Positions 14,600-21,610 of a stretch of 64,000 nt of DNA are shown in pieces. The translations under genes were made by a program, and so were the position numbers. A model generated the notes under the pieces. It saw nothing but the letters and a program-made list of their open reading frames with translations, was not told where the DNA came from and searched no databases. Numbering within the stretch: position 1 is the stretch's first letter; each line of letters starts with the position of its first letter. This DNA comes from a virus, in the IMG/VR virus record IMGVR_UViG_3300050014_000916, positions 5,028-69,027 of that record; one strand, written 5' to 3'.

Positions 14600-14678
14600 C
14601 ACGGCTGGCTCGAATCGAACAAGCACACCTTTCGGCACAATTTTGGAGATTGCTTACCTCACCAATGGATGCAGCCGT
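14600..14678 (-). tRNA. tRNA-Trp(CCA) with long variable arm
   Basis: ACGGCTG/CAGCCGT-G73, GCAAT-CTCCAAA-ATTGT, variable hairpin GCC-GAAA-GGT. Confidence 0.8.
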
Positions 14679-15463
14679 ATTTATTATCCCATTCAATAAT
14701 TCTACTATTTAATTCTTCTGAAGTAATTGAGCATGCTTTCCATTTACTCGAATTTTCATTATGTATCATTAATTGACAATTAGCAGGATGTTTAATTATT
14801 TCAGGACTTATATTATTTTCATATCCATATTTTACAGAAATCATATGGTCTCTACTAACACCATTTAAATTATTGCCATGATTTTTTGCTTGATACCAAC
14901 CATATTCTTTAATTAAATTAAAATTAAATTCATTGGGATAATCCGATAGATTAAATTTAAATTGACATTCTTTATAATATTTTTGATATTCAGTTAGATT
15001 CTTTCTATCATATATTTTTTTTACATTCAATCGAACAAAATTTCCAATTTCTTTTGCCAAATGAAAGAATTTTATTACATTCAATGCAATAATTAGGATT
15101 AATATAATATTCTTGTGTGTTATATCTTTTATTATTAGCATTAAGAATATTTTTCATTCCTTGTTCAGTATATACTCTTTCTTTACATGTTCTCATTCTA
15201 TTATTATATGATGCTGAACATTTATGTGAACAAAAAGCAGTTTTTATATTATCTCCAATAAATTCAGAACCACAAAACTTACATTTTTTAGTAAGATTAA
15301 AACTATTTTTTTTTCGATAATCTTTATTACATTTAATTGAACAAAAATGTTTTTTATTGTTTTTTTCACTTCGATTAAATTCAGATTCGGTTTTTTTAAA
15401 TATGTTTTGGCAATTTGCACAAACCACATCAATTAATTTTCTTCCCATTTTCCAATTTTTCAT
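14659..15463 (-). pseudogene. Zn-finger HNH-type endonuclease split by a frameshift at an A8 run (15015-15022)
   Basis: ORFs 15008-15463 and 14659-15141 join if one A is removed; SRDHM..HPANC..HNENSSK. Confidence 0.65.
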
Positions 15464-15537
15464 AATAATTACTTTTACATAAATACTATGAAAAATCTGA
15501 AAAGTGGAGAAGTTTGCTATCGAATCCTATTGTTTAG

Positions 15538-15609
15538 TGGAGCATGGGGGAGTCGAACCCCGAACATCTGAGTGACAGTCAGATATGTTAGCCATTACAC
15601 CACAGCCTC
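15538..15609 (-). tRNA. tRNA-Asp(GUC) with mispaired acceptor stem
   Basis: TCTGA-CTGTCAC-TCAGA; 5' GAGGCTG does not pair fully with 3' ATGCTCC. Confidence 0.65.
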
Positions 15610-15621
15610 GAAAATTAAAAG

Positions 15622-15699
15622 CGGACATAGAGGAATTCGAATCCTCGTTTTTGTGGGGTGACAACCCAAATCCCGCACGCCAGTCGAGCACATATGTCC
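15622..15699 (-). tRNA. tRNA-Asp(GUC)
   Basis: GGACATA/TATGTCC-G73, loop TTGTCAC. Confidence 0.8.
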
Positions 15700-15707
15700 A
15701 AAATTCG

Positions 15708-15783
15708 CAGTCCTGACAGGATTTGAACCTGCAACCCCCTCCCGAATCTGAGAGGGATTCACACCCGTATAAACTACAGGACT
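15708..15783 (-). tRNA. tRNA-like RNA with non-canonical anticodon loop
   Basis: AGTCCTG/CAGGACT-G73, normal T-arm, anticodon arm CCCTCTC-AGATTC-GGGAGGG (6-nt loop). Confidence 0.65.
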
Positions 15784-15789
15784 ATAAAG

Positions 15790-15865
15790 CGGTGCTGAAG
15801 GTATTCGAAACCTCCTGATCTCATGAGTGACAGTCATGCGTCCACACCAAGCAGACCCCAGCACC
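15790..15865 (-). tRNA. tRNA-Asp(GUC)
   Basis: GGTGCTG/CAGCACC-G73, CATGA-CTGTCAC-TCATG. Confidence 0.85.
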
Positions 15866-15905
15866 AAATTTCCAACATGTCAAAGAACCTCTACAACCAC
15901 AAAAC

Positions 15906-15939
15906 AAAAAACCCGACTGGATTTAGGACAGTCGGGTTT
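15906..15939 (-). terminator. Attenuator terminator 2
   Basis: AAACCCGACTG-TCCTAAATC-CAGTCGGGTTT + T tract. Confidence 0.85.
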
Positions 15940-15976
15940 CTTTTTTATAAGAAAGGAGGTTGTAATATTCGTTGTA

Positions 15977-16069
15977 TTACCCGACTGTATATAGCTTATC
16001 CTCTTCGGCTGCCCATAATAGGACATCCACCATGAGGACTGCTACCAATATGTCGAATAAATTTTTCAT
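15977..16069 (-). CDS. Leader peptide MKNLFDILVAVLMVDVLLWAAEEDKLYTVG
   Basis: Manual translation; ends in ACAGTCGGGT (15979-15988), complementary to terminator 5' arm. Confidence 0.75.
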   Translation of the reverse strand: MKNLFDILVAVLMVDVLLWAAEEDKLYTVG

Positions 16070-16113
16070 CGTTTTTCTTTTAAATTTGTTTGTCTTTCTA
16101 TTTAAATACTTTG

Positions 16114-16143
16114 CAAAGATAATAAAGTTTTCTGATTTCCAAA
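16114..16143 (-). promoter_or_regulatory. Bacteroidota sigma70-type promoter for leader 2
   Basis: TATCTTTG at 16114-16121, TTTG at 16140-16143. Confidence 0.65.
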
Positions 16144-16175
16144 CATTTTTTCAATTATTTTTAAAAAAAATTAAA

Positions 16176-16403
16176 TTATTTCTTATTTTTTCTAAATGTC
16201 ACTGCTTTTTTACCATTAATAGTTGGCATACCATGCTCGTCTTTTCCTATTGTCTTTACTACTGTTGGTGAATTTTTAAATTTGCCCATCATAATAGTGT
16301 CACCCACTTCTACATCAATATTTATATCTTCCGAAATAGGCTTGAAAGTCTTATCCAATTTTGCCATGACTTCAAAAAGTCTTTGTTTATTATTAGATTT
16401 CAT
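16176..16403 (-). CDS. Small protein with QRLFEVM N-terminal leader (probable internal head protein)
   Basis: Shared N-terminal motif; GTATTTAT motif upstream. Confidence 0.6.
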   Translation of the reverse strand: MKSNNKQRLFEVMAKLDKTFKPISEDINIDVEVGDTIMMGKFKNSPTVVKTIGKDEHGMPTINGKKAVTFRKNKK

Positions 16404-21507: not shown

Positions 21508-21576
21508 TTAAGCATAGAATCCCCATTCCAGTGTTTGTGGATGCTGTTGGGGGTTTATGTTCATTAAATTTTTCAT
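21508..21576 (-). CDS. Pro/Gln/His leader peptide MKNLMNINPQQHPQTLEWGFYA
   Basis: Manual translation; contains GAATGGGG (21521-21528), complementary to terminator 5' arm. Confidence 0.82.
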   Translation of the reverse strand: MKNLMNINPQQHPQTLEWGFYA

Positions 21577-21610
21577 CGTCTTACAAATAACATTTATTAA
21601 AAACTCTTCG

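What the first reader, a model, noticed from the sequence alone, without database searches (positions are those of the whole stretch)
14600..16143. Asp/Trp(/Glu) leader upstream of three tRNA-Asp and a tRNA-Trp
Leader MKNLFDILVAVLMVDVLLWAAEEDKLYTVG shares the ACGATGAAAAATTTA start with leader 3. It carries 3 Asp codons, 1 Trp codon and EE, and ends in ACAGTCGGGT, a 10/10 complement of the terminator arm that overlaps the stop codon. Codon enrichment is weaker than in the other two. Its TTA/TTG/ATG codons also match the more distant Leu(UAA), Leu(CAA) and CAU tRNAs, which may be coincidence.
Basis: partly seen in the sequence, partly recalled or inferred. Interest (0 to 1): 0.78.

Follow-up and report, generated by a model that had tools for sequence, protein, structure and literature searches.

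The report
Leader-peptide switch before phage tRNA genes
A large uncultured phage puts a 30-codon test gene and a switchable transcription stop in front of its Asp and Trp tRNA genes, and related phages show that this test gene was written for a six-amino-acid tRNA block, most of which this phage has lost.

Summary
A 30-codon ORF (16069..15977, minus strand) ends in a 10-nt stretch that perfectly complements the 5' arm of an intrinsic terminator. Three tRNA-Asp genes, one anticodon-less tRNA-like gene, an HNH endonuclease gene and a Trp-like tRNA follow.

The Asp/Trp(/Glu) reading is only partly right. Against the window's own tRNAs the codon match is not significant (4 of 29, P=0.14).

The same leader precedes tRNA blocks in 24 distinct sequences from 35 related phage stretches. 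Twelve of the 13 fully covered blocks hold tRNAs only for Asp, Glu, Val, Leu, Ala and Trp. These six amino acids fill 20 of the window leader's 29 codons (P=4e-5).

Terminator, antiterminator and an upstream protector helix all covary. ORF length changes by whole codons, and the stop codon keeps its place.

Best reading (0.75): a trp-type, multivalent ribosome-mediated attenuator that lets transcription into the tRNA block when those codons are read slowly. Here it guards a shrunken block.

Eight literature searches found no published account of such control of tRNA genes. This scan has noted the same device before, on this genome and on other phage DNA.

The parts
16140..16143 (-). candidate -33 promoter element
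   Evidence: Read. It lies 18 nt upstream of the -7 box. The promoter type is recalled (Bacteroidota-type) and was not tested.
16114..16121 (-). candidate -7 promoter box, 44 nt before the start codon
   Evidence: A box of the same type lies within 80 nt upstream of the start codon in 21 of 24 distinct homologous leaders. None of the 24 has one between the ORF and the tRNA block.
15977..16069 (-). leader ORF, 30 codons plus TAA
   Evidence: Homologues vary in length by whole codons, and the other two frames are closed in 24 and 20 of 24. 20 of 29 codons code the six amino acids of the family's tRNA block.
16052..16060 (-). segment 0 (codons 4-6), protector arm that pairs with 15985..15977
   Evidence: Minimum-energy fold. 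RNAalifold predicts it on its own. 94.4% of cells are paired over 24 sequences, with one-sided changes only.
15979..15988 (-). segment 1 (codons 28-30 and the first base of the stop), antiterminator 5' arm
   Evidence: 10/10 complement of 15937..15928. 87.8% of cells are paired, 5 of 10 pairs change on both sides, and 0 of 500 shuffles reach this.
15928..15939 (-). segment 2: terminator 5' arm and antiterminator 3' arm
15906..15919 (-). segment 3: terminator 3' arm with its run of six T
   Evidence: hairpin -19.8 kcal/mol. 93.9% of cells are paired and 6 pairs change on both sides.
15870..15888 (-). conserved boxA-like 19-nt motif between the terminator and the first tRNA
   Evidence: Exact motif found in 78 viral stretches. 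There it lies after leaders, after promoter-like boxes or between tRNAs, so it is a transcribed element. The boxA likeness is recalled and was not tested.
15789..15865 (-). tRNA-Asp(GTC)
   Evidence: 40.3 bits; 95% identical to the first tRNA-Asp in L015 and L020.
15707..15783 (-). tRNA-like RNA without a normal anticodon loop
   Evidence: 38.6 bits. Homologues are the second gene of the block in L032/L085 and L062/L070. The anticodon arm is a covarying 7-8 bp stem with a 4-6 nt loop.
15621..15699 (-). tRNA-Asp(GTC) with an unusual D arm
   Evidence: ARAGORN only; Rfam misses it. Five Asp homologues, 85-94% identical.
15539..15609 (-). tRNA-Asp(GTC)
   Evidence: 45.2 bits.
14659..15463 (-). 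two overlapping ORFs of an HNH endonuclease-like gene inside the block
   Evidence: phrog_1271 HNH endonuclease at E=6.6e-8 and phrog_23051 at E=9.6e-34. Pfam gave nothing above its cut-off.
14600..14679 (-). tRNA-Trp(CCA)-like gene with an extra arm
   Evidence: Own parse. Rfam tRNA-Sec model 29.8 bits, below the 47-bit cut-off. 92% identical over 49 nt to a tRNA-Trp in L032.

Best explanation
This is a four-segment, ribosome-mediated transcription attenuator of the trp/thr/ilv kind, placed in front of a phage tRNA block instead of a biosynthetic operon.

Proposed working:
1. Transcription starts about 50 nt upstream of a 30-codon leader ORF.
2. If ribosomes read the ORF quickly and reach the stop codon, they cover segment 1. 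Segments 2 and 3 then form the terminator, and transcription ends before the boxA-like motif and the tRNA genes.
3. If nobody translates, segment 0 holds segment 1 and the terminator also forms.
4. If a ribosome stalls inside the ORF for want of a charged tRNA, segment 0 is displaced and segment 1 stays free. It pairs with segment 2 before segment 3 is made, and the polymerase runs on into the tRNA genes.

The ORF is written in the six amino acids (Asp, Glu, Val, Leu, Ala, Trp) whose tRNAs fill this block in related phages. That makes it a multivalent gauge of those tRNA pools and a negative feedback on their supply. In this phage the block has shrunk to three tRNA-Asp genes, one tRNA-like RNA and one Trp-like tRNA, while the gauge is unchanged.

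Shown here: the anatomy, its conservation, the covariation of all three helices, reading-frame conservation, and the leader/block match.
Inferred: translation, stalling, read-through, and what depletes the tRNAs.
For: Anatomy:
- The ORF, the 10/10 arm and the terminator are as described.
- The minimum-energy fold has segment 0:1 plus the terminator at -56.3 kcal/mol, z=-4.86, with 0 of 200 shuffles as good.
- The antiterminator alone folds at -16.3 kcal/mol and the terminator at -19.8, so the switch would be kinetic.

Conservation:
- Flanking proteins of relatives are only 49-50% identical, yet the leader core is identical in 9 loci.
- 35 of 78 stretches carrying the boxA-like motif have this leader, in 24 distinct versions.

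Structure, on the window plus 23 of those 24:
- Antiterminator: 87.8% of cells paired, 5 of 10 pairs changed on both sides, 0 of 500 shuffles reach the paired share or the covariation score. Versions slid by 1-3 columns give 19-49% paired.
- Terminator 93.9% and segment 0:1 94.4% paired.
- RNAalifold finds segment 0:1 and the terminator unaided.
- In L071 the core changes in segments 1, 2 and 3 together.

Reading frame:
- The distance from the start codon to segment 1 is 75-87 nt and a multiple of 3 in 22 of 24.
- The stop begins 6 nt after the core starts in 21 of 24.
- The two frame-shifted cases stay open through segment 1.
- Frames +1 and +2 are open in 0 and 4 of 24.

Codon match:
- Window leader against the family's six amino acids: 20 of 29, P=4e-5. 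G001 leader: 22 of 29, no random draw of 100,000 as high.
- Pooled over 24 leaders the share is 0.69 in frame, against 0.15 and 0.09 in the other frames.
- The five residues after the Trp come in 13 different orders but always from nearly the same residues.
- 12 of 13 fully covered blocks hold tRNAs for these six amino acids only.

Generality:
- The complete 362,763-bp relative G001 has four such leaders, each matched to its own block.
- Over seven leader classes, every one of 68 amino-acid types with a tRNA in the block appears in its leader.

No bypass: 0 of 24 have a promoter-like -7 box between the ORF and the tRNA block.
Against: - Nothing shows translation, stalling or read-through directly. 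RNA contigs of two metatranscriptome runs match only 15125-15521, not the leader.
- The leader does not match this phage's own block: 4 of 29 codons.
- Within the family the leader does not follow losses from the block. Leaders keep Ala, Val, Leu and Glu codons where those tRNAs are missing. Selection on the match is therefore slow or indirect.
- With strict wobble only 16 of 29 codons are read by block tRNAs, even in G001.
- The N-terminal third and the Leu-Leu-Trp stretch are conserved in sequence, not only in composition. Part of that is explained by segment 0 and part is not.
- One other leader class (L031 type) has a promoter-like box after its attenuator, which would bypass it.
- At equilibrium the terminator fold is slightly better (-22.6 against -20.2 kcal/mol), so the model needs kinetic control.
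- The host and its transcription-translation coupling are unknown.
Confidence: 0.75

Rival explanations
1. The attenuator is real but senses translation capacity in general (ribosome supply, any elongation block) rather than the six particular codon families. The composition of the ORF would then be a by-product of RNA-structure and hydrophobicity constraints.
For: The leader does not follow tRNA losses from the block. Segments 0 and 1 and an internal hairpin constrain many codons. Only 16 of 29 codons are read under strict wobble.
Against: The in-frame share of the six amino acids is 0.69, against 0.15 and 0.09 in the other frames of the same nucleotides. Residue order after the Trp is shuffled while composition is kept. 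Six other leader classes with quite different compositions each match their own block, 68 of 68 amino-acid types covered.
Confidence: 0.1
2. The ORF encodes a small hydrophobic peptide with a function of its own, and the hairpin is simply its terminator. The tRNA genes would be expressed by other means, such as a phage-polymerase promoter at the conserved 19-nt motif.
For: The peptide has a 17-residue hydrophobic stretch. Its first eight residues and the Leu-Leu-Trp stretch are conserved. The function of the 19-nt motif is untested.
Against: The last codons vary and even change frame, while the pairing with the terminator arm and the place of the stop are kept. Ile and Phe, common in this AT-rich proteome (7.9% and 4.4%), are rare in the leaders (4.3% and 0.6%). 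The 19-nt motif also lies between tRNAs and downstream of promoter-like boxes, as a transcribed element would.
Confidence: 0.07
3. It is an RNA-only switch: the leader transcript is not translated and binds a factor or a tRNA directly, in the manner of a T-box.
For: No direct evidence of translation. The RNA is highly structured.
Against: No Rfam cis-regulatory family is matched at gathering score in the window, or at E<=1 in 15450-16200; only weak sRNA look-alikes appear. Length varies by whole codons in 22 of 24, and the stop codon is fixed relative to segment 1 in 21 of 24.
Confidence: 0.05

Closest known systems
Multivalent leader-peptide attenuators of enterobacterial amino-acid operons (thr leader: Thr and Ile; ilvGMEDA leader: Ile, Leu, Val).
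   Same: A short translated leader is enriched in codons of several amino acids. The terminator and antiterminator share an arm. A terminating ribosome masks the antiterminator arm.
   Different: The controlled genes are tRNA genes, not biosynthetic enzymes. The gauge covers six amino acids. It sits in a phage. No sequence similarity: no Rfam leader family is matched.
E. coli trpL four-segment attenuator (recalled; its logic is also described for pheL in passages of PMC3082878)
   Same: It has four segments with 1:2 and 3:4 against 2:3, which correspond here to 0:1 and 2:3 against 1:2. Without translation it also terminates.
   Different: The sensing codons here are spread over about 18 codons between the protector and the antiterminator arm, rather than sitting inside segment 1.
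Silent tRNA array (trn operon) of Anabaena sp. PCC 7120, induced under translational stress (PMC8421152 and PMC10272220; passages read)
   Same: An accessory block of tRNA genes is switched on when translation is impaired.
   Different: Control there is by the repressor TrcR acting on direct repeats in the promoter. Neither text contains 'leader peptide' or words beginning 'attenuat'. That system is bacterial, not phage.
T-box riboswitches (recalled)
   Same: They couple the state of a tRNA pool to read-through of a terminator.
   Different: A T-box binds uncharged tRNA directly, needs no translation and controls synthetase or amino-acid genes. No T-box match here.
boxA / Nus-factor antitermination of rRNA operons (recalled)
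   Same: A boxA-like motif sits at the start of a long, highly structured, untranslated transcription unit.
   Different: Here it lies downstream of an attenuator. Binding of Nus factors was not tested.

Membership tests
Leader-peptide (ribosome-mediated) transcription attenuator | A short ORF in the 5' leader, upstream of and on the same strand as the controlled genes, with no promoter in between | tested here: met
   ORF 16069..15977 lies 112 nt before the first tRNA. 0 of 24 homologues have a -7-type box between the ORF and the block.
Leader-peptide (ribosome-mediated) transcription attenuator | An intrinsic terminator between the ORF and the first controlled gene | tested here: met
   Hairpin of -19.8 kcal/mol with six T. 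93.9% paired over 24 sequences, with double changes in 6 pairs. The simple scan missed it.
Leader-peptide (ribosome-mediated) transcription attenuator | An antiterminator that shares an arm with the terminator and overlaps the end of the ORF, so that a terminating ribosome masks it | tested here: met
   10/10 pairing. Covariation with 0 of 500 shuffles reaching it. The stop begins 6 nt after the core starts in 21 of 24.
Leader-peptide (ribosome-mediated) transcription attenuator | An upstream protector segment that holds the antiterminator arm when the leader is not translated | tested here: met
   Segment 0:1 appears in the minimum-energy fold and in the RNAalifold consensus. 94.4% paired, but with one-sided changes only.
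Leader-peptide (ribosome-mediated) transcription attenuator | A leader enriched in the codons whose supply is being regulated | tested here: inconclusive
   Not met against the window's own tRNAs (4/29, P=0.14). Met against the block of relatives (20/29, P=4e-5).
Leader-peptide (ribosome-mediated) transcription attenuator | The leader is translated, and stalling raises read-through | not testable with these tools
   Indirect support only: whole-codon length changes in 22 of 24. The RNA contigs do not cover the leader.
Rfam leader families (His, Trp, Leu, Thr leaders) and T-box | A match to the family's covariance model | tested here: not met
   No such match at gathering score in the window, nor at E<=1 in 15450-16200.
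rRNA-type boxA antitermination site | A boxA sequence in the transcript that binds NusB/NusE | not tested
   The likeness of 15888..15881 to boxA is recalled. The motif's position in transcripts fits.

The most novel reading that the evidence does not exclude
The leaders form a phage-borne alarm for attack on the tRNA pool. When host defence nucleases, or the phage's own shut-off, deplete particular tRNAs, ribosomes stall in the matching leader. Only then does the phage transcribe replacement tRNAs with divergent bodies. On this reading, the shrunken block here (three different tRNA-Asp genes, a Trp tRNA with an extra arm and an anticodon-less tRNA-like RNA) is what is left after selection by a host that targets Asp and Trp tRNAs, and the tRNA-like RNA is a decoy. 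An independently reduced relative (L037/L041/L053) also keeps just Asp and Trp.
Probability: 0.15. Interest if true: 0.92.

Novelty: new variant of a known kind. Interest (0 to 1): 0.8.

Why it matters
Leader-peptide attenuation is textbook biology for amino-acid operons. Here the same device appears to control tRNA genes, so the ribosome's speed on given codons would set the supply of the tRNAs that read them.

That would be a direct homeostat of the tRNA pool, carried by giant phages with up to 55 or more tRNA genes split into blocks by amino acid. It would explain how such phages avoid making dozens of tRNAs when the host pool suffices. It also offers compact, codon-specific sensors for synthetic biology.

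This particular copy adds two points:
- The sensor can outlive most of the genes it was written for.
- Asp and Trp tRNAs are the ones kept when the block shrinks.

Tried and rejected
- A blastn search of 15500-16200 against the phage record collection found nothing.
- Rfam found no cis-regulatory family.
- Pfam found nothing above its cut-offs for five neighbouring ORFs.
- I first thought the odd tRNA at 15783..15707 might be a decayed tRNA-Glu. Its homologues show a closed anticodon arm, so I dropped that idea.
- I looked for fine-scale co-variation between leader composition and tRNA losses within the family and found none. My early impression that one relative's extra Val codon goes with its Val tRNAs, and that L034 lacks both, rests on single cases, one of them on a cut locus. 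I do not rely on it.
- An automatic leader picker based on the longest complement chose wrong frames in several loci. I replaced it with a class pattern.
- RNA evidence: two metatranscriptome runs of one study (X1, X2) hold contigs identical to 15125-15521 only, and a third (X3) holds only short unlike pieces. Nothing lies on the leader or the terminator, contigs cannot show ends, and DNA carry-over is not excluded. This gives no evidence either way.
- Leader too short as a query for the search for related loci.
So I could not ask whether bacterial genomes hold the device, and the host was not tested. 'Bacteroidota-type' rests on a recalled promoter consensus and on earlier notes of this scan.
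- Literature searches. Only the listings were seen, except passages of PMC3082878, PMC8421152 and PMC10272220. None describes a leader-peptide attenuator before tRNA genes. Supplements were closed, and subscription journals are not covered.
- The pattern searches returned the same 9 loci.
- Rows left out: L027 was left out of alignment A2 because of a long insert before the motif. L012/L017 (an inserted ORF puts the leader beyond my 330-nt look-back), L019 and L049 (leader cut by the contig end) are not among the 24 distinct leaders.
Full report
WHAT THE WINDOW IS. The window is 64,000 of the 69,027 bases of one viral contig with 32% G+C, estimated 21% complete, so it is a fragment of a very large phage. 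All 18 ARAGORN tRNA genes and a tmRNA gene lie on the minus strand within the first 21.5 kb.

THE OBSERVATION. Its last ten nucleotides, up to the first base of the stop codon (15988..15979), are a perfect complement of 15937..15928. That stretch is also the 5' arm of a hairpin closed by 15919..15909 and followed by six T. The 15-nt start context recurs exactly once more, at the leader at 21579..21565. Downstream lie, in order:
- tRNA-Asp (15865-15789);
- an unclassifiable tRNA (15783-15707);
- tRNA-Asp (15699-15621, ARAGORN only);
- tRNA-Asp (15609-15539);
- two overlapping ORFs of an HNH endonuclease-like gene (15463-14659);
- a Trp-like tRNA with an extra arm (14679-14600), which ARAGORN and the Rfam tRNA model miss.

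Taken alone the evidence is modest. A complement this long turns up at 1.5% of random placements. The leader's Asp, Asp+Trp or Asp+Glu+Trp content is not above background (P=0.23, 0.14, 0.20).

RELATIVES CHANGE THE PICTURE. A neighbouring 243-residue protein led to three viral contigs only 49-50% identical in that protein. They hold the same order of tRNA blocks and nearly the same leader. A search with the leader core found 9 loci. One lies in a 362,763-bp record rated 100% complete (G001), which has 55 Rfam tRNA matches, all but one inside a 42-kb stretch. A search with the conserved 19-nt motif that separates terminator and first tRNA found 78 stretches. Of these, 35 carry this leader, in 24 distinct versions.

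Behind the leader the blocks read Asp (1-3 genes), Glu (1-3), Val, Leu (several anticodons), Ala and Trp. Of 13 blocks that are bounded by the tmRNA gene or followed for at least 6 kb, 12 hold tRNAs for these six amino acids and no other.

These six amino acids fill 20 of the 29 codons after the start in the window's leader (P=4e-5), and 22 of 29 in G001, where no random draw of 100,000 was as high. Pooled over the 24 versions the share is 0.69 in frame, against 0.15 and 0.09 in the other two frames of the same nucleotides. The five residues after the single Trp occur in 13 different orders built from nearly the same residues. Pro and Gln never occur in these leaders. So composition is kept, not peptide sequence.

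STRUCTURE. The minimum-energy fold of 16075..15895 pairs codons 4-6 (segment 0) with the end of the ORF (segment 1) and forms the terminator (segments 2 and 3). Its energy is -56.3 kcal/mol with z=-4.86. On an alignment of the window with 23 of the 24 versions (L027 left out):
- RNAalifold finds both helices unaided.
- Segment 0:1 is paired in 94.4% of cells, with one-sided changes only. The terminator is paired in 93.9%, with six pairs changed on both sides.
- The alternative segment 1:2 helix is paired in 87.8% of cells, with five of ten pairs changed on both sides. None of 500 shuffles reaches the paired share or the covariation score, and slid versions reach only 19-49% paired.
- In L071 a core G-C pair becomes A-U in segments 1, 2 and 3 together, and the partner in segment 0 still pairs.

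The antiterminator alone is worth -16.3 kcal/mol and the terminator -19.8. At equilibrium the terminator form is slightly better (-22.6 against -20.2), so the switch must be kinetic, as in known attenuators.

READING FRAME. The distance from the start codon to the core of segment 1 is 75, 78, 81, 84 or 87 nt in 22 of 24 sequences. The stop codon begins 6 nt after the core starts in 21 of 24. In the two sequences with a shifted frame the ORF stays open through segment 1 and ends 11 or 16 nt after the core's first base. In a third, in-frame sequence (L087) the stop lies 30 nt after it. Frames +1 and +2 are open in 0 and 4 of 24. This is what a translated leader whose stop must place a ribosome on segment 1 would show. 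A conserved peptide would not tolerate the frame shifts, and an untranslated RNA would not keep whole-codon steps.

PROMOTER AND THE 19-NT MOTIF. A -7-type box lies 44 nt before the start codon here and within 80 nt in 21 of 24 versions. None of the 24 has such a box between ORF and block. The 19-nt motif also occurs between tRNAs and after promoter-like boxes, as a transcribed element would. Its likeness to boxA is my recollection and is untested.

GENERALITY.
- G001 has four leaders. Each is enriched in the amino acids of its own block and not of the others. One of them, in front of a Thr/Cys/Asn/Ile/Ser/Phe/Gly/Arg block, has no counterpart in this window.
- Three further classes use almost every amino acid once or twice. 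In L029 the leader uses 19 amino-acid types and lacks only Pro, and the block has tRNAs for 19 types and lacks only Pro.
- Over seven classes, all 68 amino-acid types with a tRNA in the block appear in the leader.

WHAT SPEAKS AGAINST, OR LIMITS, THE READING.
- There is no direct evidence of translation, stalling or read-through. RNA contigs match only 15125-15521.
- The window's own block serves 4 of the leader's 29 codons.
- Within the family, leaders keep their codons where the tRNAs are gone: Ala missing in 3 of 13 blocks, and nearly everything missing in the L037 group. The match is therefore inherited rather than tuned.
- Under strict wobble only 16 of 29 codons are read, even in G001.
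- The L031 class has a promoter-like box after its attenuator.

THIS PHAGE'S BLOCK. Where G001 has 16 tRNA genes over 3.1 kb, the window has three Asp genes, the tRNA-like RNA, an endonuclease gene and the Trp-like tRNA over 1.3 kb. The L037/L041/L053 group has a leader that differs from the window's and a block also reduced to Asp and Trp. The gauge here would still answer to slow reading of Val, Leu, Ala and Glu codons but could only supply Asp and Trp tRNAs. Two Leu tRNAs lie 6 kb further on, beyond the tmRNA gene. Whether read-through reaches them was not testable.

COMPARISON WITH WHAT IS KNOWN. The device works like the multivalent leader-peptide attenuators of the thr and ilv operons and has the four-segment plan of trpL (recalled; the pheL logic was read in passages of PMC3082878). 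It matches no Rfam leader or T-box model. The nearest printed case of a regulated accessory tRNA block that I could read is the Anabaena trn operon, induced under translational stress. It is controlled by the repressor TrcR at promoter repeats, and neither paper contains the words leader peptide or attenuat-. Eight full-text searches found no account of leader-peptide attenuation of tRNA genes. Supplements and subscription journals were not covered.

EARLIER NOTES OF THIS SCAN. The scan has described the same device on this genome (the two sister leaders) and on several other phage genomes, including this six-amino-acid leader type. I reached the six-amino-acid reading before seeing the notes on other genomes. 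They agree with it but are not independent evidence.

VERDICT. The best explanation is a multivalent ribosome-mediated attenuator gating a now-reduced phage tRNA block (confidence 0.75). It is a new variant of a known kind, of high interest.

Noticed in passing
window 15707-15783 (-): A tRNA-like gene with normal acceptor, D and T arms whose anticodon arm is a closed 7-8 bp stem with a 4-6 nt loop. Homologues sit as the second gene of the block in L032/L085 and L062/L070, with compensating changes in that stem. This looks like a conserved non-decoding tRNA-like RNA, perhaps a decoy or a processing element.
   Followed up: partly
window 14659-15463 (-): An HNH endonuclease-like gene in two overlapping frames sits inside the tRNA block, where relatives carry Glu, Val, Leu and Ala tRNA genes. 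RNA-library contigs of two runs are identical to 15125-15521.
   Followed up: partly
L022:11552-11686 (record G001): A fourth leader class, absent from this window: a 44-codon ORF with a run of 22 residues all drawn from Thr, Ser, Arg, Asn, Gly, Ile, Phe and Cys. It has an 11/11 complement to its terminator arm and precedes a block of exactly those tRNAs.
   Followed up: partly
L029, L076, L091 (also L024, L035, L088): A 'pan' leader of 32 codons that uses 19 amino-acid types and lacks only Pro. It sits before a single block with tRNAs for 19 types, also lacking only Pro.
   Followed up: partly
L031, L038, L052, L086, L089: In this leader class a promoter-like -7 box lies between the attenuator's terminator and the 19-nt motif. 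It would let transcription bypass the attenuator.
   Followed up: no
window 15870-15888 (-) and 78 viral stretches (L012-L092): A 19-nt boxA-like motif is conserved exactly in front of tRNA blocks across many large phage contigs, up to 675 kb. Four of the 78 stretches (L045, L054, L055, L058) have no tRNA after it.
   Followed up: partly
L023:2814-2886 (record G001); also L084: ARAGORN calls a tRNA with anticodon CTA (labelled Pyl), that is, an amber-suppressor-type tRNA, at the end of the tRNA region. This may hint at TAG recoding in these phages.
   Followed up: no
window 15962-15980 (-): A small hairpin directly after the stop codon looks replaced by a different hairpin at the same place in L014 and L019. 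This is by eye only; the column-wise count does not show it.
   Followed up: no
window 15945-15959 (-): A pyrimidine-rich stretch between segments 1 and 2 is nearly invariant in the family and stays unpaired in the folds. As I recall the 3' end of 16S rRNA, it resembles that sequence. Its role is unexplained.
   Followed up: no
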